DNA of 46,889 nucleotides from positions 1 to 46,889 of the forward strand of contig NW_021829899.1 of assembly GCF_006345805.1 (NCBI RefSeq). The letters are read 5' to 3'. Below the pieces are notes generated by a model. That model did not search any database and was not told the DNA's origin. It saw only the letters and a program-made list of their open reading frames with translations. The DNA comes from Octopus sinensis. Lineage: Eukaryota. Below are positions 364-43,197 of the stretch, piece by piece (position 1 is the first letter of the stretch; every line of letters starts with the position of its first letter). A program made the position numbers and the translations under genes.

Positions 364-1420
364 TATATGTATATGTGTATATATATCATAGAAACCCCGG
401 AATATTTATGTATCTTTTATTTCTGAAATGGAAGCGAAACCTTGTGCATTAATGACGGTTACGGTTAAGTTTCATTGTGCAAAGTGCCACCAATATAATG
501 TAATCTTGTATTATAAATCATAGACGAATATATTTGACGTTGAATGTTTACAGCATAGTAGAAAAGTGGAAAAAGGAAAAAAAATGGAAACTCATTTTTT
601 ATAAAATAAGCATAATCGAAATCTACCTTCATTGCTTTAATATTATAGTACATAAGCTATAGTGCTGGTTTATAGAAAATGTCAAAATATTTATCTTCAT
701 GGAACAAACAACTCAACCATGTGCAATCATACTATTCATTCACACGTCTGTATTTACAACACAGACATAAAAGATTACAGAGAATCGAGATAAAGCAACA
801 GGTCAAATTCTATGAAACCAGTGGTACGAGAAAGATTACGTAGTTGTCGTAATTACATAGAGCTAAATGATGTATTCATATATCTCCTATCTATATATCA
901 AACTGTCACGCACTCCTTCTCTGCATATGTGTCTGTGTGAACATGTAATTACACACACATACACACCCACCCACGTAAACATTTATGTATGTGTATATAT
1001 GTATATACATACCTACATACACACATATAAGTATATTTATTTATTCGCTTGAGTTATTGTCGCTATTGAACTTTTCTTTTGATGCTGAAATTGCCGTTAT
1101 GGTAGTTATTTTTGTTGTTGTTTTCGCCGCTACTGCCTGCTTTTGGTTCCTCTGTTATCACTATTGCAATATAATAAGTTTGGAGATGGAATTTGTTCTT
1201 AGTTGGTAGGAACGGATTTTTGTCGACGCGAGATGGCCAACTAGAACTCCTATCCAGATACTATCTTCCACAGAACAAGGGATCCCACAATTACCGTTTC
1301 TTATCAATGTCTGAGTTCTGTTGCACTATTGGGAACCTCGACCGTAGAGATTCCAACCTCCCACACTCATTCCAGGAGATCACCATTTATAGCCTCCCAC
1401 AGTTCCTGTGACACGCTACA

Positions 1421-1590
1421 TTATTTACATTATTTACATTATTTACATTATTTACATTTGAGGGATATTTATCCTCATCTTGTTTGTTGTTAACAACATT
1501 TCGGTTGAAATACCCTCCAGTCTTCATCATGTGTCTTGGGGAAATTTCGGACCAGAGTTCTCATTCCTAACGCATTTTTCGATGTTGTTA
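1421..1590 (-). mobile_element. Hammerhead-bearing family A arm (inverted, degenerate core ATGATGA)
   Basis: Reverse complement aligns to 2506-2680, 41350-41500 and 41768-41925. Motif GACAC ATGATGA AGACTG..CAACC GAAATGTT at ~1492-1535. Confidence 0.8.
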
Positions 1591-1686
1591 TTATTATTAT
1601 TATTATTATTATCATCATCATCATCATTATATTATATTATATTTTATTATTATTATTATTATTATTATTATATTATTATTATTATT

Positions 1687-2221
1687 GAGTGAGAGAGAGC
1701 AGTTCATGCCATCAAAGTGACACTGGGGTAAAATATACGAAGCCCAATATACCCATCATGACTACCCGTCTGATAAGGGTACACCAGGCACATGCATCAC
1801 AACCATATGTGTGCGACATGGTGACCTCGTATCAAAATAAAAAGCACATGACCTTGCAGGTGGGGCCCAGTTAGAATTTTCTTCAGATTGAGTAGCCCAT
1901 CCCGCTCAAAAGGTCCCTGAATAAGGGTTGTTTAAGGTTGTTGAAAGAACCACCCATGTTTCCAGAGGTGAATTATTCAAACCCCAAAGAATCCCTCTCA
2001 ACACATGGCTATGATGCTCCCCCACTACTTCTGCTCGTGATCAGAGATGCACATATTGTCAGCCACTAAGGGACATGCTCAACTGGTTAAGGTCAAACAA
2101 TTGACAAGCAAATCTGTGGTATTGAGCAGAATATTTGCTGTAGCCCATCTTTTATACCAAGACAAAACAAGTGTACATGATAACACTTCCAATCAGTTAA
2201 GATCAGAAGCCATGAGAGCCA
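1687..2221 (-). mobile_element. ~535-bp non-coding repeat inserted in (AAT)n, unclassified non-autonomous retroelement
   Basis: Near full-length inverted copy at ~16010-16563. Both copies are flanked by (AAT)/(ATT)n on both sides. Strand assigned only from the (AAT)n orientation. Confidence 0.75.
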
Positions 2222-2222
2222 C

Positions 2223-2254
<32 letters not shown>

Positions 2255-2279
2255 TATTATTATTATTATTATCATCATC

Positions 2280-2317
<38 letters not shown>

Positions 2318-2348
2318 TCATCATCATCATCATCATCATCATCATTCA

Positions 2349-2382
<34 letters not shown>

Positions 2383-2386
2383 CATG

Positions 2387-2435
<49 letters not shown>

Positions 2436-2457
2436 TATTATTATTATTATTATTATA

Positions 2458-2489
<32 letters not shown>

Positions 2490-2505
2490 CATTATTATTA
2501 TTACA

Positions 2506-2715
2506 AATAACATGGAAAAATACCTTAGGAATGAGAATCCAGGTTCGAAATTACTCCAAGACACCTGATGGAGAGTATATAAGCCGAAACGTTGATGGAG
2601 AGTATATCAGCCGAAACGTTGTGTTAACAACAAACAAGATGAGCACAAATATCCGTCGAATGTAAATAACATAAATAATGTACATAATTCCTCATCTCTT
2701 AGATATAGAACTGTG
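2506..2715 (+). mobile_element. Hammerhead-bearing family A arm with 3' tail; ribozyme disrupted
   Basis: Matches 41768-41959 through AGAACTGTG. Core GACAC-CTGATG has lost AAGGCTG and carries a 27-bp tandem duplication (2566-2592 / 2593-2619). Confidence 0.85.
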
Positions 2716-3019
2716 CTGTCATACGCTGTTAACAATGTCTGGTAAGGGGGATAGCTCCCTATTTATAAAACCTGAACTGCATCTCAGAGTATCATAGGTG
2801 GAAGGGAGTGTCCAATGATATTTTTCCATGAACGCTCCCAAGACTAATATGAGGGGAAGGGGAATTTTACAGTGGGAGAGTGATCTGGTTAGTGTTAGGC
2901 GACGAGGTGAAACTAAGGGCGGAGAAACGATGGGATTGGAAATAGTGGAGGGAGGAGATGCCCTCTCTTGTTTTCCGAGTAAGAATGGAAATTGTAGTAG
3001 CGATAGAAAAGGTAGGGTG

Positions 3020-4678: not shown

Positions 4679-5266
4679 GGCGGCGAGGTGGCAGAAATGT
4701 TAGCGCGGCGGGTGAAATGCTTAGCGGTATTTCGACTACAGTTACGTTCTGAGTTCAAATTCCGCCGAGGTCGACATTTACTTTCATCCTTTCGGGGTCG
4801 ATTAAACAAGTACCAGTTGCGCACTGGGATCGTTATAATCGGTTTAATCCGTTTGTCTGTCCTTGTTTGTCCCCTCTGTGTTTAGCTCCTTGTGGGTAGT
4901 AAATCTGTCTTTATGTTCTGAGTCCAAATGCCTTTCATCCTTTCGAAGTCGATAAATTAAGTACCAGTTACGCACTAGTGTCGATGTAATCAACTTAAAA
5001 TCCTTTTTTCTGTCCTTTTTTGTCCCCTCTACGTTTAGCCCCTTGTGGGCAATAAAGAAATAAGAAACGTTAGCACGCTGGGCAAAATGCTTGGCGGTAT
5101 TTCATCTTTCTTTACGTTCTGAGTTCAAATTCTGCCGTGGTCGACATTGCCTTTCGTCGCTTCGGAGTCGATAAATTAAGTACCAGTTGCGTACTGGAGT
5201 CGATCTAATCGAACTACTTCCTCTCACCAAATTTCAGACCTTGTGCCTAGAGTGGAAAAGAATATT
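4679..5266 (+). mobile_element. SINE family Y, internally trimeric copy
   Basis: Head GGCGGCGAG.TGGCAGAAA, B-box GAGTTCAAATTCC, three tandem GCCTTTCATCCTTTCGGGGTCGATAAATTAAGTACCAG-like blocks, tail TTGTGCCTAGAGT. Same layout inverted at 26879-27462. Confidence 0.85.
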
Positions 5267-11790: not shown

Positions 11791-11802
11791 ATAATATATA
11801 TC

Positions 11803-11861
<59 letters not shown>

Positions 11862-11879
11862 CTATATACACGCACACAA

Positions 11880-12195
11880 GTGAAGGCACATGGCTCAGTT
11901 GTTAGGGCTTCGAACTTACGACCACGATGTTGTGAGTTCGAATCCTGGACGGAGCTGCGTGTTGTGTTCTTGATCAAGACACTTTATTGTTGCTCCAGTT
12001 TATTCAGCTGTAGAAATGTGTTTGCGACGTCACTGGTCAGCCTTGCTTTTTCCTTCGATTACATTGGTGGCGTGGATAGGGGAGGCCGGTATGTCTACTG
12101 GTCTTCCATAAACAACCTTGCCCGGACTTGTGCCTCGCAGGGGAACTTTCTAGGTGCAATCCCATGGTCATCCGTGACCAAAGGGTGTTCTTGAC
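11880..12195 (+). mobile_element. tRNA-derived CORE-like SINE (family S3)
   Basis: A-box TGGCTCAGTTG and B-box GAGTTCGAATCC; colinear with 42853-43197. Confidence 0.9.
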
Positions 12196-16009: not shown

Positions 16010-16563
16010 CCCTAATGCAGTACCAGACAGTGGCTTTCATGGCTTCTCATCTTAAGTGATTGGCATTGTTATGTACATTGTTTTGTATTGGTATTAGTGA
16101 TAGGTTACAGCAAATATTCTGCTCAATACCACAGATTTGCTTGTCAGTTGTTTGACCTTCATCAGTTGAGCATGTCCCTTTGTGGCTGACAATATGAACA
16201 TCTCTGATCACGAGGAACAGAAGTAGTGGGGAAGCATCACAGTCATGTATTGAGAGGAATTTTCTGGGGTTTGGATAATTCACCTTTGGAAATACGGGTG
16301 TTTTGTTCAACATCCTTAAGCAACCCTTATTCAGGGACCTTTTGAGCAGAATGGGCTACTCGACCCGCAGAAAATTCTAACTGTGTCCCACCTGCAAGGT
16401 CATGCGCTGTTTATCTTGCTATGAGATCACCATGTCGTGCACATATGGTTGTGATGCATGTACCTGGTGTACCCTTAACAGAAGGGTAGTCATGATGGGT
16501 ATACTGGGCTTCGTATATGTTACCCTAGAGTCACTTTGATGGCATGCAGTGCCCTCTCGCTCA
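16010..16563 (+). mobile_element. Second copy of the ~535-bp (AAT)n-associated element
   Basis: Reverse complement of 1687-2221. Confidence 0.75.
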
Positions 16564-16579
16564 ATAATAATAATAATTA

Positions 16580-18567: not shown

Positions 18568-18950
18568 TTCTTTTATTCTTTTATTTGTTTCAGTCATTTG
18601 ACTGATGCCATCACAAATCGACCACAGGAGTTATTCATTTTATGTCTAGTACTTATTCTATCGGTGTCTTATGCGGAATTACTAAGTTACGGGGACGTAA
18701 ACACAACAACAGCGATGATGGGGGACAAACACAGACACACACACGCACCCCCCCCGTATATATATATACATATATATGTATGTATGTATACGATGGGCGT
18801 TTCTCAGTTTCCATCTGTCAAATCCACTCACGGGTTTTGTCGGCCCGAGGGTATAGTAAAGACACTTGCCCAAGGGACCATACTGGGGACTGAACACGGA
18901 ACAATTTGGTTGGGGAACAAGCTACTTACCACACACCACTCATTGGCCTA
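18568..18950 (-). mobile_element. SINE family X with internal microsatellite
   Basis: Reverse complement of 23031-23435. Confidence 0.8.
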
Positions 18951-22507: not shown

Positions 22508-22700
22508 AAGGCGGCAAAGCGACAGAATCGTTACCGCAAAATACTTTGTGGAATTTCGTCCGTCTTTACGTTCTGAGTTCAAATTCCGCCGAGGTCGACG
22601 TTGCCTTTCATCAAATCGGGGTCGATAGATTAAATATCAGTTGAACCCTGGAGTAGATCAAATACGCCCTCCGCTAAAATTTCTGGCTTTGTGCCAGCAA
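22508..22700 (+). mobile_element. SINE family Y monomer
   Basis: AGGCGGC head, GAGTTCAAATTCCGCCGAGGTCGAC, a single central block, tail GGCTTTGTGCC. Confidence 0.8.
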
Positions 22701-23030
22701 TTTTGGGGGAAGGAGTAATAATATCTATCTGCCTGTCTGTCTATCTATACGTACATATCAACTTATAAGGCATGATACAGCGGCCAGAAGAGTCGGACGT
22801 TTGAAATTTGCTCACTTATCAGTGTTCACTAAAATAGTTTACAGAAAATATAGCTGTAATCCCGAGGGAAAGAAGCTGATAAGTAACATTCCGATGTTGC
22901 ATCCTACACTAGTATCTTTGATCAAAATTTTCTTTTCTTAAATCTGAAATAACAGGGCTGTTTATTTATCACATGTAACAGGTTTGCTTGTTTTTGATTT
23001 GTCTGCTTTTAAAGTCCATTTACGAACATA

Positions 23031-23435
23031 GGCGTAGGAGTGGCTGTTTGGTAAGTAGCTTCCTTGCCAACCACATGGTTCCTAGTTCAGTCCCATTGCG
23101 TGGCACCTTGGGCGAGTGTCTTCTACTCTAGCCTCGGGCCGACCAAAGCCTTGTGAGTGGATCTGGTAGACAGAAACAGAAAGAAGCCCGTCGTATATAT
23201 GTATATATATGTATGTGACTGTGTATATGCTTGTATGTCTGTGTTTGTCACCTCGACATTGCTTGACAACCGATGCTGATGTGTTTACGTCCCCGTAACT
23301 TAGCGGTTCGGCAAAAGAGACCGATAGAATAAGTGATAGGTTTACAGAGAATAAGTCGTGGTGTCGATTTGCTCGACTAAAGGCGGTGCTCCAGTATGGC
23401 CCCAGTCAAATGACTGAAACAACTAAAAGAAAAAA
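23031..23435 (+). mobile_element. SINE family X, full-length
   Basis: Head GGCGTAGGAGTGGCTG..TGGTAAG, B-box-like AGTTCAGTCCC, internal (TA/TG) repeat, tail AAATGACTGAAAC plus A-rich end; several copies in the window. Confidence 0.88.
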
Positions 23436-25437: not shown

Positions 25438-26878
25438 GTATGTATTTATTAATGTGAAGATATTCACAAACAAAAACAATAAAACAACCAGCATAATTTC
25501 TTAGAAAGACCTAATACAAGTGTGCAAGTGTGCTGTACTTTATTCACGATAAGATTACTGGTACAGACTTCAAAATCTTCCGAATGCGTGTGAGTGTATA
25601 TAAATATATGCACAGACGCTTGACTAGGAACTTATCCGTTTTTGCCTTTTATCTTTTGTTTTAATATTTAAATATTTATCTTTTATCTCTTATAATTTAC
25701 AACTCCTGCTAATGTCATTTTTGCTTCTCTTTCATCCCTGTTCGGTTTTATTGATCTTTGACTGCGTTTAACATATTCTATTTTGTAACATCTTTTCTTG
25801 TGACACCTTCTTTGAATTCAAACCAGACCATTTATTATCAACATATCCGGTACATACATTTTAAATTCCTGGAAATTTACAATACTCAACAAAAATTCTT
25901 CTCTGCATTTCTGAAGAATGTATTCTGATGGAATGACGGTTGACATTGAGTTACGTAAGATCAATTATAAGTAATTATGTTACACTTGTAAAATTATAAA
26001 TAAACAATTTCCATTCTCATTTTCTTTTGTATATTTCTATACCTATGTGTGTGTATATATTTTTATGCTTTAAGTGTGTATATTATATGTCTGTCTCTGT
26101 GTCTCTCAATCTAACAATCTATCTATCTATGCATCGATGGACGCATCTGAAAGGATTAGAGACAAACACTTTCGTCTCTGGTTAATCTCTCATCAACTTC
26201 TTCAAGTATCACTTGAAAAGGAAAGTGAGAGTAGGGAGGTAAGTTTTGTCTAGTGAATGTTTTAAAAAAAGATGGGTGAATGTAGCAAGGATAGCACGTA
26301 TAAATGATGGTGGTGGTGGTGGGGGGTTGATCGGTGATTGTGGTGGTAGTGGTTGTGGTGTTGTTGTAGTGGGTAGTGGTATAAATAATTGTGGTATAAA
26401 TAATTGTAGCAGTAGTAGTAGTAGTAGTAGTAATAGCAGTAGTGACAGGAGTGGGGTAGTAGCAGTAGCAGCAGTAGTAGCATCAGCAGTAGTACATACG
26501 AGATAACTATCCTGGTAAGTTTTCATTTTCAAATGTCAAGTGAAACTCAATTATGTATTTCTTCAACAGTCTATATATGTGTATATATACGTATTCATGT
26601 ATGCGATTCTAACGGTATACATATGTTTACATCTGTGTGTGTGTGTGATTGTATGTATATATGTATTTATGTAATTGACTGTATGTGTTTGTGTGTTTAT
26701 ATATGTAAGTTGTATATTTTCTCTGCATACGCCTGCGTATCTTCTACGTATATACCAATACGCATGCATGTACGTATGTATGAATGCATGTATATTTCTT
26801 GTGTGCATGCGTATGTGTATACATATGCTCACATGTGTATGTATGCATATAACCGTGTGTGTGTATATAAATATATAT

Positions 26879-27462
26879 CCTTTTCTACTCTAGGCACAAA
26901 GCCCGAAGTTTTTGTGGGAGGAGGTAAGTCGATTAGATCGACCCCAGTACGCAACTGGTACTTAATTTATTGACCCCGAAAAGATGAAAGGCAAAGTCGA
27001 CCTCAGCGGAATTTGAACTAAGAACATAAAGACAGACGAAATACCTATTTCTTTACTACTCAGAAGGGGCTAAACACAGCAAGGACAAAAAAGGACAGAC
27101 AAACGGGTTAAGTCGATTATATCAACCCCAGTGCGTAACTGGTACTTATTTAATCGACCACGAAAGGATGAAAGGCAAAGTTGACCTTGGCGGAATTTGA
27201 ACTCAGAACGTAGCGGAAGACGAAATACCTATTTCTTTACTGTACGCAAGGGGCTAAACACAGAAGGGACAAACAAGGACAAACAAACGGATTAAGTCGA
27301 TTATATCGACCCCAGTGCGTAACTGGTACTTATTGAATCGGCCCCTAAAGGATGAAAGGCAAAGTCGACATCGGCGGAAATTGAACTCAGAACGTAGCTG
27401 CAGACGAAATACCGCAAAGCATTTCGCCCGGCGTGCTAACGTTTCTGCCAGCTCGCTGCCTT
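26879..27462 (-). mobile_element. SINE family Y, internally trimeric copy
   Basis: Three ~180-bp units with GAAAGGATGAAAGGCAAAGTCGACC; head AAGGCAGCGAGCTGGCAGAAACG on the minus strand. Confidence 0.88.
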
Positions 27463-28399
27463 AGCTCATTGCCTTCCATGAGGCTCATTTGGAGATCTAC
27501 TAAAAACAGTCTCATTGCCGGTTGTTCGTTCTATTTAAAGCGAATTGCTTATGTATAATGCATTTGCAGAGGTGTATTTCACAATATTTAGTAGTTAAAG
27601 TTTGTCATTATTAGCTCTGGTTAATTCTAGAGGACATTTTATGTCATACATCGCAGTTTTTGAACTACTAAAATACCCACTGTTGTGAAAAGGTTTTTTT
27701 TGTTGTGTGCATTTCCCATCTATATCATTCATTGATATTCCATACACATTCGCATTTGATAGTATAGTTTCAAAAAAAAAAAAAAGAAAACACTAAAATA
27801 TTTATTATTGCAATTGAATAGAAAAGGATAAATATACTTTTTTCATGGATCCCCATTTGGAACTTTTCAAATAATTTATTATAATTTCCAAAATAATTCA
27901 CATATGAAGAAAATCTAAATATTATATATTATTTTGACTCCTAAGACACCTGGCAAAGCCAAAATATATGGATGAAAAAATGTGGGATTTAGTGGGTAAA
28001 TTAGATAATCTACATTAAGCGAATGGAGCATTCTATCCCAAATTAGACCAAAGCCTTTCAAGGTTTATCTATTCTGATTAGATCAACCTAAAGACGCTTA
28101 CAGAATACCAGGTGGTACGAATTGTTACTGTGATTGTATCATTAAACGATGCCACGGGCTACTCGGCGGTAATTGAACAGAGATTATAAAATGAGGGAGC
28201 TGTAAAGCATTCCGTCCTGCACTCTAAAAACTCCCGCCGACATTCCCCGTGTCGCTGCTAGAATGTGTACCATTCGGAACAGTCTTTAAGCGTGCCGCCC
28301 CATTCCTTATGCAGGCTTATATTAGCAGATGCAAAAGTATCGCTCGGGTGCCCCTATAGAGGCTTATATAGCAGCTCAAATTTTAATTTTTTTTTATTT

Positions 28400-28713
28400 A
28401 TGCGCCCTTTTCAAGCCTAGTCAGGCTCATGGGACCGGATTCCCGCTTTCTGTGGCGTATGTGTTCCCCCCACCCCACCAGCTGGACGGGACGCCAGTCC
28501 ATCGCAGCGTTACTCAAGAAACAAGAAGAGAGAAAATGAGAGAAAGTTGGGGCGAAAAAGTACAACGGGGGTCGCCACCACCCCCTGCCGGAGCCTCGTG
28601 GAGCTTTAGGTGCGTTCACCCAATGAACACACACAACGCCCGGTCTGGGAATCGAAACCGCGATTCTCCCACCGCGAGTCCGCTGCCTTAACCACCGGGC
28701 CATTGCGCCTCCA
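28400..28713 (-). mobile_element. tRNA-derived SINE S1
   Basis: Minus head TGGAGGCGCAATGGCCCGGTGGTTAAGG, B-box GGTTTCGATTCCC; colinear with 36260-36561. Confidence 0.9.
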
Positions 28714-28714
28714 C

Positions 28715-28961
28715 TGCGCCCTTTTAAAGCCTAGCCAGGCTCATGTGCCCGGTTTCGCGGTTTCAATGGCGTATGTGTACCCCAGCTGGACGGGACGCCA
28801 GTCCATCGCAACGTTACTCATTTTTGCCAGCTGAGTGGATTGGAACAACGTGAAATGAAGTGTTTTGCTCAAGATCACAACGCGTCGCCCGGTCCAGGAA
28901 TCGAAACCACAATCTTACAATCATGATGCTGAAACACTAACCACTAAGCCACGCGCCTCCA
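28715..28961 (-). mobile_element. tRNA-derived CORE-like SINE S2 sharing the S1 3' tail
   Basis: Minus head TGGAGGCGCGTGGCTTAGTGGTTAG, block TTGTGATCTTGAGCAAAACACTTCATTTCAC, tail ...CCTGGCTAGGCTTTAAAAGGGCGCA. Confidence 0.88.
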
Positions 28962-31465: not shown

Positions 31466-31932
31466 AAGGGTGAAAAGGAACACACGAGTTGATATATATG
31501 AAAAAACAAGTCAAAATAGAAAATGCTAAAATAATTTTATAAAGAACATTTCAGATACAGTAGGGATCACCACCATCCCCTGCCGGAGCCTCGTGGAGCT
31601 TTTTAGGTGTTTTCGCTCAATAAACACTCACAACGCCCGGTCTGGGAATCGAAACCGCGATCCTACGACCGCGAGTCCGCTGCCCTAACCACTGGGCCAT
31701 TGCGCCTCCAGTGGCCCAGTGGTTAGGCCCAGTGGTTAGGGCAGCGGACTAGCGGTCGTAGGATCGCGGTTTCGATTCCCAGACCGGGCGTTGTGAGTGT
31801 TTATTGAGCGAAAACACCTAAAAAGCTCCACGAGGCTCCGGCAGGGGATGGTGGTGATCCCTGCTGTATCTGAAATGTTCTTTATAAAATTATTTTAGCA
31901 TTTTCTATTTTGACTTGTTTTTTCATATATAT
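31461..31932. repeat. Fold-back inverted repeat (207-bp arms) of a SINE S1 head fused to an AT-rich tail
   Basis: Arms 31492-31698 and 31726-31932 with 2 mismatches by eye, 27-bp spacer, and 31 extra nt on the left arm only. Confidence 0.95.
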
Positions 31933-36240: not shown

Positions 36241-36259
36241 TAATGATAATTATTTATGT

Positions 36260-36561
36260 ATGCGCCCTTTTCTAGCCTAGCCAGGCTCATGGGCCCGGTT
36301 TCCAAGTTTCTATGGCGTATGTGTTCCACCCAGCTGGACGGGACGCCAGTCCATTGCAGCGTTACTCAAGAAACAGGAAGAAAGAGTGAGAGAAAGTTGG
36401 GGCGAAAGAGTACAACAGGAGTCACTATCACCCACTGCCGGAGCCTCGTGGAGCTTTAGGTTTTTTCGCTCAATAAACACACACAACGCCCGTTCTGGGA
36501 ATCGAAACCGGAACTCCGACCGCGAGTCCGCTGCCCTAACCACTGGGCCATTGCGCCTCCA
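36260..36561 (-). mobile_element. tRNA-derived SINE S1 within (AAT)n
   Basis: Colinear with 28400-28713. Confidence 0.9.
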
Positions 36562-37049: not shown

Positions 37050-37321
37050 GACATATATATATATATATATGTCTATATGTGTGTGTGTTGGTGTATGCAT
37101 ATATATATATGCCTCTCTTTCATATCGTCATTCCTTAGCTAGATCACATAGTGGTTTGATATGTCATGCTCGTCTCCATAATGCTTTTGGTGGCCTGAGG
37201 ACACACATGAGGAGTTACAAGGGGAATTGTAGACATTGGGGAATGGTAGGTACCTAATGCCAGGTACATTAAAAGACCATACGTCGAAGGGAGAATCCAT
37301 TACATCTGTATGTATGTATGT

Positions 37322-37541
37322 CGTTATTCAGTCTATTCTAATATTTCTTGACAATAGCGAAAGACCCGGTTTCTAATCTAGATCCAATGCTCTTCATTGG
37401 AATTTCAACATCAACATGTATGTGTATATGTAAGTCAATATTCAGTTTATTTTACGATTTCTTGACAATAAAGAACCGGTTTGTAACCTAGATCCAAGGC
37501 TCCTTCATAGGAGTTTCAGCGTCAGCAATAAGGTATTTTTG
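37322..37541 (-). mobile_element. Two tandem copies of family C short element in (TACA)n, hammerhead-like but non-canonical core
   Basis: Both align with 40893-41004. Minus strand CC(A/T)ATGA...AGCCT-TGGATCT-AGGTT...(G/C)AAACCGG. Confidence 0.7.
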
Positions 37542-37991
37542 CATGTATGTATGTATGTATGTATGTATGTATGTATGTATGTATGTATATATGTATGTAC
37601 GAACGTACGAATATATGTACGTACGTAAGTATGTATGTGTTCTATAGTGAATATGTATACCACTCGCGGTAAATAGAGATATGGTTCAGCCATTGTATAT
37701 ACACCAGTAGCCGGTCATCAAGAGAGGGTCGAGAATCGAAGAGATGAGAGACGACTGTAAGCGATAGTATGACAGAAGTTAGTGTATAAATATTACAGTA
37801 CGAAGTGATACAAACGGTATCCGATGACTAGTAACTATTGAGGCTACTAGCGTGAAACAGTAGCTACAATACCACGGCAGCCACACATCACACCAGTAGG
37901 TGAACCCACTTCACAATACTACGTATGGTATTGTGCCCGTCCATAAAACTACATACACACCAACATACACGCATATATACCCACACACCTA

Positions 37992-40159: not shown

Positions 40160-40696
40160 TGCATATAAACCTGGAGATCAGGGGAAAAGAGGATGCCTAC
40201 GCTGAACTATTGAAAAATCTGCAGTTACTCTATCCAGATTACAAGTCCAGGTTTATGCGTGTAATTATTGGAGCACTGGGATATGTAATACACTGCCTAA
40301 ATACCAATCTTGAGAAATTAGGCTTCTTGAAACCAGAAAGAAGAAAGCTGACTTGAATATTACAGATCCAGTTCATCATTGGAACTGTAAAAGTCTGTGA
40401 AACTTTCCAGGAGATTATTACTTCACTATTTGTGAGCGTGTCTAGATATGGAACTATATGCGTGAAATTACATACAAGAAACAAAACACACAAATCAACA
40501 CGTATACATATACATGCATACATGCATACATACATACATACATACATACGTACGTACATACATACATACATACATACATACATACATACATACATACATA
40601 CATACATTTCACTATTTGCGAGCGTGTCTAGATATGGAACTATATGCGTGAAATTACATACAAGAAACAAAGCACACAAATCAACACGTATACATA
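40160..40696 (+). mobile_element. 3' end of an RLE-type LINE with (TACA)n tail and duplicated 3' UTR
   Basis: KEDAYAELLKNLQLLYPDYK..VIIGALG; 89-bp UTR repeated at 40422-40510 and 40608-40696, each followed by (TACA)n. Confidence 0.8.
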
Positions 40697-40892
40697 CATG
40701 CATACATGCATGCATGCATGCATGCATACATGCATACATACATACATACATACATACATACATTCATACATACATACATACATAAATACATACATACATA
40801 CATACATACAAACATACATTCATACATACATACATACATACATACATACATACATACATACATACATACATACATACATACATACATACATA

Positions 40893-41004
40893 CAAAAATA
40901 CCTGTTGTTGATGTTGAAATTGCAATGAAAGAGCCTTGGAACTAGATTAGAAGCCAGATCTTTTTCTATTGGCAGGAAATCTTGAAATAAAACTGAATAA
41001 TGAC
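40893..41004 (+). mobile_element. Family C short element following (TACA)n
   Basis: Reverse complement of 37437-37541. Confidence 0.7.
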
Positions 41005-41403
41005 ATGCATATGTATATATGCTTGTAGCTGATGAATGATTACTATGCTGTAATTTCTCTCGTTTACTTGAACATAGTGCGAATTACCGTTATGAAGATG
41101 TGGAGCTATATTTCCAGGCAGTTGGGCACCCTCACACTTCTATAGAAATGTCAGAGCATATCTGACCCTGATTATGCCAATCATGTGGACAAGAGGCAGT
41201 ATAGCATTTCGTGTTCACCGGATCTCGTACCTTTAGAACTTTTTTCTATGGAAATGCTTAACAGATAAAATTTTGTGTACGAAAGAGGAAACTGAATGCG
41301 AAGAATATCGAGAATCTTTCTCTATGTTTGCGATTCCAATACTTCTTATATTATTTACACTATTTACATTTGATGGATATTTGTCCTCATCCTGTTTGTT
41401 GTT

Positions 41404-41449
41404 AACACAAAGTTTCGGCTGATTTACTCTCCAGCCTTCATCAGGTGTC
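41404..41449 (-). ncRNA. Minimal type I hammerhead motif (helix III palindrome mutated ACGT>ACTT)
   Basis: Minus strand GACAC-CTGATGA-A-GGCTG(GAGAGTAAAT)CAGCC-GAA-ACTT-T-GTGTT. Confidence 0.8.
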
Positions 41450-41521
41450 TGGGGGAAATTGTGAACATGGGTTCTCATTCCTAAGGTATTTTTCGATGTT
41501 GTTGTTGCTGTTGTTGTTGTC

Positions 41522-41578
<57 letters not shown>

Positions 41579-41585
41579 CAGGTCA

Positions 41586-41640
41586 AGTGGTTAAGAGCGA
41601 GGGCTACTAAACTCAAGATTCCGAGTTCCATTCCAGGCAG
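41586..41640 (+). promoter_or_regulatory. 5'-truncated tRNA-like (Arg-like) head with Pol III A/B-box remnants
   Basis: AGTGGTTAAGAGCG...CTACTAA...AAGATTCCGAGTTCCATTCC resembles tRNA D-arm, anticodon arm and T-arm. The B box has one mismatch. Confidence 0.7.
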
Positions 41641-41643
41641 TGA

Positions 41644-41756
<113 letters not shown>

Positions 41757-41823
41757 TAATAATAATAACAACAACATCGAAAAATATCTTAGGAATGAGA
41801 ACCCAGGTTCAAAATTTCCCCAA

Positions 41824-41869
41824 GATACCTGATGAAGGCTGGAGAGTATATCAGCGGAAACGTTGTGTT
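41824..41869 (+). ncRNA. Minimal type I hammerhead motif (one stem II mismatch)
   Basis: GATAC-CTGATGA-A-GGCTG(GAGAGTATAT)CAGCG-GAA-ACGT-T-GTGTT. Confidence 0.8.
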
Positions 41870-42489
41870 AACAACAAACAAGATAAGGGCAAATATCCGT
41901 CAAATGTAAATAATGTAAATAATGTACATAATTCGTCATCTCTTAAATATAGAACTGTGTCCAATACTTCTTGTTACCAAGATTATTTGAACAAGAAATC
42001 TCTTTAGCTTGAGAACAGCCGCTCATAAGAAAAAATCAAATTCAGTCTGTAGATGTTATCAAATTTTGAAAATGAAATGTATTTTTTTATAATCATTAAG
42101 TGGGTGGGCAGTTTTGCTGGGACACACTATACATACATACATACATACATACATACCACAACATACATACATACATACATACATACATACATACATACAT
42201 ACACACATACATACATATATACAAATATACATATATATATCTATATATATGTGTATGTATACACATACAGGTATATACATGTATTAACGTGATAATGTTA
42301 ACACTTAAAGCATTGCAACTAATTGGCTAGTTATTGTAGTATATACGCAAAAACACCTACACATCCACATATAAACTGTATACATGTGCAACAACAACGT
42401 ATATATGAGAAATCTTCATGTAACAGAATATCTTCCTCTGGCATGATTTTTATCAAATATCTTTTCGTCTCGCAGGTGTTGCGGTATAG

Positions 42490-42549
<60 letters not shown>

Positions 42550-42852
42550 TGTATGTATGTATGTATGTATCATGCATGCATGTATGTATGTATGTATGTA
42601 TGTATGTATGTATGTATGTATGTATTATGTATGAATGTAGGTAGGTAGGTATGTATGTATGCACATACATACACATATATACACGCACACATATACATGT
42701 ATGTATGTATATATGCATATATATATATATATATACATACAGACATATATACATGTAAGTGTAAGTGCATATATATTTTACATACATATATATACATGTA
42801 TGTATATATGCATATAGATATATGCATTACATATATATATATGTATATGTAT

Positions 42853-43197
42853 GTGAAGGCGCATGGCTCAGTGGTTAGAGCGTCGAGCTTACGATCGTGA
42901 GGTTGTGAGCTCGAATCCCGGACCGGGCTGCGTGTTGTGTTCTTGAGCAAGGCACTTTATTTCACGTTGCTCCAGTTCACTCAACTGTAGAAATGAGTTG
43001 CGACGTCACAGGTGCCAAGCTGTATCGGCCTTTGTCTTCCCTTGGATAACACTGGTGGCGTGGAGAGGGGAGGCCGGTATGCATGGGCGACTGCTGGTCT
43101 TCCATAAACAACCTTGCCCGGGCTTGTGTCTAGGAGGGTAACTTTCTAGGTGCAATCCCATGGTCATTCATGACCGAAGGGGGTCTTTACCCTTTAT
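42853..43197 (+). mobile_element. tRNA-derived CORE-like SINE S3, well preserved
   Basis: A-box TGGCTCAGTGG, B-box-like GAGCTCGAATCC, block TGTGTTCTTGAGCAAGGCACTTTATTTCAC, tail CTTTACCCTTTA. Confidence 0.92.

What the first reader, a model, noticed from the sequence alone, without database searches (positions are those of the whole stretch)
1421..2715. Second family A locus repeats the same asymmetric inverted architecture, including the 35-nt tail
Seen: 40 kb away, a minus arm and a plus arm again flank (ATT)n. The left arm again stops in the TATTTACAT repeats, while the right arm continues GTACATAATTCCTCATCTCTTA.ATATAGAACTGT to the same endpoint. The centre holds the 535-bp element instead of a head. 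Established (from memory): Penelope 3' pLTRs carry an optional tail of roughly 30-40 nt that is absent from the inverted copy. Inference: the fold-back is a product of the integration mechanism, not chance or misassembly, since arms and flanks differ between the loci.
Basis: partly seen in the sequence, partly recalled or inferred. Interest (0 to 1): 0.75.

Follow-up and report, generated by a model that had tools for sequence, protein, structure and literature searches.

The report
Two-ended Penelope insertion, later invaded
This mirror-image repeat is one old back-to-back insertion of the end piece of an abundant Penelope-type jumping gene, with a younger element lodged in its middle; the layout is already described, but its near-strict pairing of one long with one short end likely records copying started from both cut DNA strands.

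Summary
The locus is one head-to-head insertion of the pseudo-LTR (pLTR) of a protein-coding Penelope-like retrotransposon. It has a short-ended minus arm (1418-1587), a tailed plus arm (2509-2714) and a worn 12-bp target duplication around both (10/12 match).

In 88 loci chosen without regard to the tail, 47 had a divergent partner and none a convergent one. Of 43 scorable pairs, 39 were one long plus one short end, 4 short+short and 0 long+long. 23 of 47 pairs had a target duplication, against 7 of 388 controls.

- The tail can sit on either arm.
- The head is lost here by truncation.
- The 535-bp element is an unrelated, younger (AAT)n-targeting insertion.

The layout is published (PMC3846280, PMC8557442). 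Two-ended priming at two fixed start sites is my best mechanism and is inferred. The unusual part is a tRNA-derived head in the pLTR of the coding element, a possible Pol III promoter, with only suggestive support. The scan already noted both ideas on other DNA.

The parts
1406..1417 (+). Left copy of the target-site duplication (worn, 10/12 identical to the right copy)
   Evidence: family duplications mostly 12-13 bp
1418..1587 (-). Short-ended pLTR arm: start of the ORF, minimal hammerhead, ending in AATGTAAAT repeats without the tail
1491..1535 (-). Minimal type I hammerhead motif, broken (first core base changed, 2-nt deletion at the cleavage triplet)
   Evidence: read from alignment; intact form folds with stems I and II in L014
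1588..1687 (-). (AAT/GAT)n tract of the left pLTR, downstream of the inserted element
1688..2222 (-). Independent, younger non-coding element (full length about 555 bp, here cut by about 25 nt at its 5' end) inserted into the (AAT)n tract
   Evidence: 97-98% identical to its best relatives; all 29 oriented copies are followed by an AAT-rich tract and nearly all preceded by one, and 5 of 29 (this locus included) are near family A
2223..2503 (-). Expanded (AAT/GAT)n tract; the left copy is truncated within it, so no head is present
2504..2508 (.). Strand-switch junction between the two copies
   Evidence: sequence shows (ATT)n turning directly into the plus arm
2509..2714 (+). Long-ended pLTR arm, truncated at its first base; candidate start codon at 2531 (inferred)
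2560..2625 (+). Minimal hammerhead motif, broken by a deletion in stem II and a 27-bp tandem duplication
2680..2714 (+). 35-nt tail: ORF sequence between the two preferred 3' end points
   Evidence: loose ends pile up at 2713-2714 in 4 of 4 public runs
2716..2727 (+). Right copy of the target-site duplication
   Evidence: one contig of run X18 bridges tail and flank
41335..41972 (.). Second family A insertion: perfect 13-bp duplication, short minus arm, (ATT)n, truncated tRNA-like head, (AAT)n, tailed plus arm

Best explanation
The locus is a single truncated insertion of an endonuclease-bearing Penelope-like retrotransposon, likely made when both strands of a staggered cut primed reverse transcription at two fixed start sites about 35 nt apart, and later split by an unrelated element. 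SHOWN: the unit is ORF end - tRNA-like head - (AAT)n - hammerhead arm - tail - ORF; 3' ends fall in two classes; pairs are head-to-head, nearly always one of each class, and often inside a 12-13-bp duplication; the centre element is an independent, younger family. FROM PRINT: a Penelope protein cuts and extends both strands in vitro and starts at two internal sites that bound the tail (PMC11167929). INFERRED: (1) the endonuclease makes a cut staggered by about 13 nt; (2) one 3'-OH primes at the distal site and the other at the proximal site, probably on the same RNA or in one dimeric complex; (3) both cDNAs run towards the RNA 5' end, often stopping near the head; (4) their ends are joined and repair yields the duplication; (5) the 535-bp element entered the left (AAT)n later.
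For: Arm and tail continue into the ORF in longer copies, with a 401-codon open frame across the border in L128. RVT_1 hit E=1.3e-7. Homologues of 28-68% identity include an 847-aa protein whose N-terminus resembles the arm's translation by eye. Of 146 arm ends, 75 short, 60 long, 3 beyond the tail, 8 other. 47 of 88 loci paired, none convergent. 39 of 43 scorable pairs discordant, 0 long+long, 0 of 200,000 permutations as extreme. Duplication score of 9 or more in 23 of 47 pairs against 7 of 388 shifted controls. Solo copies use both ends about equally (21 short, 19 long or longer, 1 other of 41), so each end is a start site in its own right. The tail sits on either arm. The short end lies in the loop of a 10-bp stem in a well-kept copy (z=-2.5). 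Arms of a pair share rare variants more than shuffled pairs (22 of 3,916 sites, 0.56% against 0.31%, p=0.001).
Against: No junction signature was shown: only 6 of 47 junctions were callable, 1 had an overlap of 3 nt or more, and most had extra bases. 24 of 47 pairs lacked a duplication at the cut-off, and this locus itself scored only 5. Most of the 41 solo copies gave no adjacent duplication. 4 pairs were short+short. The shared-variant excess is small (within-pair identity 91.3% against 91.0% across pairs) and could come from later gene conversion. The stem-loop is not significant in this locus's own arm (z=-0.13). No empty orthologous site appeared among the joints shown, and no contig spans the whole locus. 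Frangieh et al. saw no difference in start site between the two strands, so what would force one-of-each pairing is unexplained.
Confidence: 0.62

Rival explanations
1. One priming event, then fold-back: a single cDNA (or an antisense RNA, as proposed for Adineta vaga) self-primes at a palindrome near the head and copies itself back. Endonuclease resolution at a fixed site then removes about 35 nt from one arm.
For: Proposed in print from palindromic junctions (PMC3846280). Craig et al. ascribe the tail to endonuclease resolution. It also predicts one long plus one short end and shared variants. Many junctions lie at or near the palindromes at the head's start by eye.
Against: Solo copies end short as often as long, and the ORF-bearing arm can be the short one. 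Junctions also occur in (AAT)n, in the arm and in the ORF, and often carry extra bases. In vitro the tail ends are reverse-transcription start sites.
Confidence: 0.27
2. Two independent insertions, the second targeted to a pre-existing pLTR or its (AAT)n tract.
For: Penelope endonuclease prefers ATT motifs and its own pLTR. Partial tandems and nested pieces occur (L027, L102).
Against: One duplication flanks both arms in 23 of 47 pairs. All 47 pairs are divergent and 39 of 43 discordant.
Confidence: 0.06
3. Assembly artefact or chance pairing of two common repeats.
For: The locus is rich in microsatellites and no public contig spans it.
Against: Arms differ by 16%. A contig of run X18, labelled as another organism, bridges the tail-flank junction with 44 and 107 letters on its two sides. 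Contigs of two further runs run from the left flank 23-28 letters into the arm. Chance of a partner is about 2%.
Confidence: 0.02
4. A MITE-like DNA transposon whose terminal inverted repeats are the arms.
For: Inverted arms, a duplication and a high copy number.
Against: Arms are unequal, centres vary, spans run from 205 to 1,423 bp, duplications from 9 to 18 bp, and the arm is the start of an RT ORF.
Confidence: 0.01

Closest known systems
Penelope elements of Adineta vaga (Pen2/Pen2a; PMC3846280, passages and Discussion read)
   Same: Inverted pLTR shorter than the direct one, 31-bp optional tail, 8-10-bp duplication around the whole insert, ORF starting in the pLTR.
   Different: Here duplications are mostly 12-13 bp, copies are in the tens of thousands (rough), most hold only pLTR, and the pLTR has a tRNA-like head and (AAT)n rather than a TATA/Inr motif.
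PAc (Poseidon of Anolis; PMC11167929, parts 1-2 of 4 read)
   Same: Hammerhead overlapping the ORF start, tail bounded by two internal start sites, one in a stem-loop.
   Different: The parts read give no model for inverted pairs and report no strand difference in start site; no tRNA head is described there.
General EN+ PLE insertion layout (PMC8557442, passages read)
   Same: Inverted 5'-truncated copy and a 30-40-bp tail at either end.
   Different: The passages read give no counts of long/short pairing; the tail is ascribed to endonuclease resolution.
Cassandra, Helenus and Ajax TRIMs (PMC10886601) and Schistosoma hammerhead SINEs (PMC6765202); passages read
   Same: Small-RNA-derived Pol III promoter inside a terminal repeat, or in front of a hammerhead.
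   Different: Those are non-coding; here the tRNA-like head is part of the protein-coding unit.
Animal non-LTR retrozymes (bioRxiv 10.64898/2026.07.22.740005, part 1 of 5 read)
   Same: Type I hammerhead, pLTR-derived.
   Different: Retrozymes are head-to-tail arrays; these copies are solo or head-to-head truncations of a coding element.

Membership tests
EN+ Penelope-like element | ORF with reverse transcriptase | tested here: met
   RVT_1 E=1.3e-7 in L091; 10 of 13 homologues carry PF00078
EN+ Penelope-like element | C-terminal GIY-YIG endonuclease | tested here: inconclusive
   No Pfam or PDB hit. A VYSIPC..YKGET..R.EEH motif is present by eye and shared with homologues; reading it as GIY-YIG is recalled.
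EN+ Penelope-like element | Partial tandems forming pLTRs that include the ORF start | tested here: met
   L131, L137 and L148 show ORF end - head - arm - ORF; open frame across the border in L128
EN+ Penelope-like element | Optional 30-40-nt tail and inverted truncated copy | tested here: met
EN+ Penelope-like element | Minimal type I hammerhead in the pLTR | tested here: met
   Core, 5-bp stem I and 6-bp stem II fold in L014; core positions 68-98% conserved. No Rfam hit. Cleavage not tested; both motifs at this locus are broken.
Penelope/Poseidon clade | Phylogenetic placement of the RT | not tested
   No tree built. The extra CxxC finger seen before the endonuclease of a second PLE family in this genome is absent here by eye.
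tRNA-derived SINE | tRNA-derived head with A and B boxes | tested here: met
   Colinear with genomic tRNA genes, z=3.2-6.7 over 7 genes tested; A box in 45 of 63 and B box in 49 of 82 covering copies. ARAGORN and Rfam do not call it.
tRNA-derived SINE | Separate non-coding lineage with its own 3' end | tested here: not met
   The head follows the ORF stop in most of 30 ORF-end loci; short copies end at the same two points as coding copies
tRNA-derived SINE | Transcribed by RNA polymerase III | tested here: inconclusive
   Indirect only. RNA runs laid were unstranded, of another organism label, and showed no pile-up of starts.
MITE | Symmetric terminal repeats, fixed length, fixed short duplication | tested here: not met
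Non-LTR retrozyme | Head-to-tail arrays of intact hammerhead monomers | tested here: not met
   Arrangement is solo or head-to-head, with at most short partial tandems, in 88 loci

The most novel reading that the evidence does not exclude
[quoted passage not shown] Its transcript starts at the head, carries no Pol III terminator over about 2.6 kb, and is primed twice by one dimeric enzyme, so that one RNA gives both arms and floods the genome with SINE-like fold-backs.
Probability: 0.3. Interest if true: 0.75.

Novelty: new variant of a known kind. Interest (0 to 1): 0.42.

Why it matters
How Penelope-like elements, the closest relatives of telomerase, build their inverted ends is still open in print. 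A family with thousands of short two-armed copies gives a countable record: 39 of 43 one-long-one-short pairs and no long+long pair turn the question into a specific in vitro test on the existing PAc system. If the tRNA head is a working Pol III promoter, it would be a coding retroelement using a promoter type otherwise described for non-coding ones. For annotation, these fold-backs should be filed as Penelope truncations, not as SINEs or MITEs. The locus itself is a dead, ordinary copy.

Tried and rejected
Rfam found no tRNA, hammerhead or other meaningful family in the locus, the heads or the 535-bp element. ARAGORN found no tRNA in 16 head-bearing loci. Pfam and PDB gave no endonuclease hit.

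The junction-microhomology test was underpowered: 6 of 47 callable. The idea that every solo copy hides a tiny inverted piece was not borne out; only a few show one (L026, L105, L206).

Run search: no RNA holder listed. RNA reads of three runs of one study covered the element on both strands, 86-89% ran on into unlike sequence, and no start pile-up was listed. This is not informative on Pol III.

No empty site appeared among the joints shown in four contig sets (696 joints not shown). Searches for a close sister family without the head returned only family A (28 of 28 loci examined). No similarity was found between the 535-bp element and three LINE-like 3' ends tested, so its partner is unidentified. 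loci (L031-L060) were fetched but not analysed. Searches used a wrong frame and a degraded head; they were superseded.

Six literature searches listed no paper on a tRNA-derived promoter in an autonomous Penelope element or on two-ended priming of Penelope. Repbase entries, subscription papers and supplements were not seen, including the repeat library of PMC13282606, and may already hold this family.

Full report
1. Observation. A minus arm at 1418-1587 stops in TACATTATT repeats, a plus arm at 2509-2714 carries 35 more bases, and the locus at 41348-41959 repeats this. A direct repeat flanks the whole structure: 10 of 12 bases here (1406-1417, 2716-2727; 198 of 20,000 random pairs do as well) and a perfect 13-mer at the second locus. 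Both centre tracts read ATT/ATC on the top strand, so the centre belongs to the left arm and the strand switch lies at about 2504-2508.

2. What the arm is. A genome search gave 3,805 candidates. A 30-nt motif in the arm has 3,300 exact matches. Since 3 of 35 non-anchor arms match it exactly, there are roughly 38,000 arms (wide error). Following flanking sequence led to decayed long copies. L091 reads: 12-bp duplication, short inverted arm, junction, tail running on into an ORF, 3' UTR, head, (AAT)n, arm with tail, duplication. The ORF has an RVT_1 hit and a C-terminal motif that I read from memory as GIY-YIG; Pfam and PDB did not confirm it. Arm and tail are in frame with the ORF. All copies examined are broken; ORF stretches of different copies are 80-92% identical in nearly all pairs, and arms lie about 5% from their majority. 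The arm holds a minimal type I hammerhead of the kind described for Penelope pLTRs (PMC4209133, passages). The host species was not established by any search; an earlier scan note calls it an octopus.

3. Test of the architecture. I took 90 loci from the first 100 listed motif hits on contig C1 and dropped 2 as overlapping, leaving 88; the motif lies far from the tail. Their 146 arms end short (75), long (60), beyond the tail (3) or elsewhere (8). 47 loci have a partner, all divergent. Dropping 4 pairs with an unclassifiable end, 39 of 43 are one long plus one short, 4 short+short and 0 long+long; no permutation of 200,000 reached this. Duplications scored 9 or more in 23 of 47 pairs against 7 of 388 shifted controls, mostly 12-13 bp. 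The 41 solo loci end short (21) or long (19) about equally, and most gave no adjacent duplication. In ORF-bearing copies the tail can be on either arm. In public contigs the family's end piles up at 2713-2714 in 4 of 4 runs. One contig of another organism label bridges the right junction, none spans the locus, and no empty site was shown.

4. The centre. The 535-bp element is its own family: 97-98% identical to its best relatives, set in AAT tracts, near family A in 5 of 29 loci, often beside LINE-like ends. The arms around it are 84% identical. It is therefore most simply a later insertion into the left arm's tract. The head is missing because both copies were truncated before reaching it.

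5. Mechanism. The layout is in print: inverted shorter pLTR, 31-bp tail and 8-10-bp duplication in Adineta (PMC3846280, passages and Discussion), and the general scheme in PMC8557442 (passages). Frangieh et al. (PMC11167929, parts 1-2 of 4) show cleavage and extension of both strands and two internal start sites bounding the tail. Joining this with the counts, I favour priming from both cut strands, one at each site, with joining of the two cDNAs (0.62). Independent choice of site would give about ten long+long pairs in 47 (my arithmetic), and none was seen. Both ends occur in solos. Paired arms share rare variants slightly more than chance. Against: no junction signature, the small size of the shared-variant excess, and no strand bias in vitro. 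Fold-back self-priming with trimming remains a real rival (0.27).

6. The tRNA-like head. The 75 nt before (AAT)n are colinear with tRNA genes of this genome (z=3.2-6.7 over 7 genes) and keep A and B boxes in most copies. They follow the ORF stop, so they are part of the coding unit. Of 93 head-bearing arms, 43 begin within -6 to +7 of the tRNA +1 position and 14 run on past -13. A palindrome at that spot could also stop the enzyme. No run of four Ts is shared by more than 2 of 26 copies along 2.3 kb. Synonymous shuffles expect about 3 per near-full ORF, with P(0) mostly 0.01-0.06. Two other Penelope-like families in the genome carry 3-14 such runs, at or above expectation, in 9 of 10 loci (the tenth was mis-called). 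Against: the copies are one evolutionary sample, G runs are also short, and LINE-like A-rich frames had only 2 runs in 2.2 kb. RNA data were uninformative. The closest published cases are non-coding (PMC10886601, PMC6765202; passages). Six searches listed nothing on a coding Penelope with such a head; Repbase and supplements were not seen.

7. Earlier scan notes. I reached both readings before looking. The scan had already noted the tRNA-headed Penelope in this genome and two-ended priming in other genomes. These are unchecked notes and add no support.

8. Verdict. Real, correctly read by the first stage, a dead copy in a published layout. Its value lies in the family-level counts and in the untested promoter. 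New variant of a known kind; interest 0.42.

Noticed in passing
window 31492-31932: A different fold-back, 99% complementary over 207 bp: two back-to-back heads of a tRNA-like SINE family (other copies at 1-97, 28390-28820, 36250-36561) plus about 65 bp of apparently duplicated flank. It is much younger-looking than family A, or an assembly artefact.
   Followed up: no
window 1688-2222 and about 16010-16565; L344-L372: The 535-bp element is a young, abundant, non-coding (AAT)n-targeting family of about 555 bp with a fixed 5' end, tandem copies and no Rfam hit; its partner enzyme is unidentified.
   Followed up: partly
L003, L006, L009, L018, L021, L025, L092: 3' ends and ORFs of at least three LINE-like families (R4/Dong-like by recalled motif) sit in the (AAT)n tract of family A pLTRs, so the pLTR seeds landing sites for other elements.
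   Followed up: partly
L333-L342: Two younger Penelope-like families with long open frames (up to 1,008 codons) and an extra CxxC finger; used only as T-run controls.
   Followed up: partly
L065, L070-L072, L123-L126: The same near-full-length copy with its flanks appears on contig C1 and three small contigs at 96-98% identity: duplicated or redundant assembly.
   Followed up: no
window 4679-5265, 22536-22695, 26875-27460: Another dispersed family with a 184-bp tandem unit at 26925-27413.
   Followed up: no
window 37313-37641 and 40683-41012; 11794-12188, 28816-28961 and 42769-43184; 18572-18950 and 23029-23435: Further dispersed repeat pairs of 70-82% identity, not examined.
   Followed up: no
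88 loci on G000:C1: Among discordant pairs the long arm was on the + strand in 27 and on the - strand in 12; no cause known, may be chance.
   Followed up: no
arm positions 7, 84-85, 89-90, 126-127: Most variable sites in the arm are CpG positions, as expected from methylation decay.
   Followed up: no
window 1050-1440: A contig of run X19 matches the left flank with 41 differences in 388 letters and also enters the arm repeats, hinting that the insertion is shared with a diverged genome; it may instead be a paralogue.
   Followed up: no
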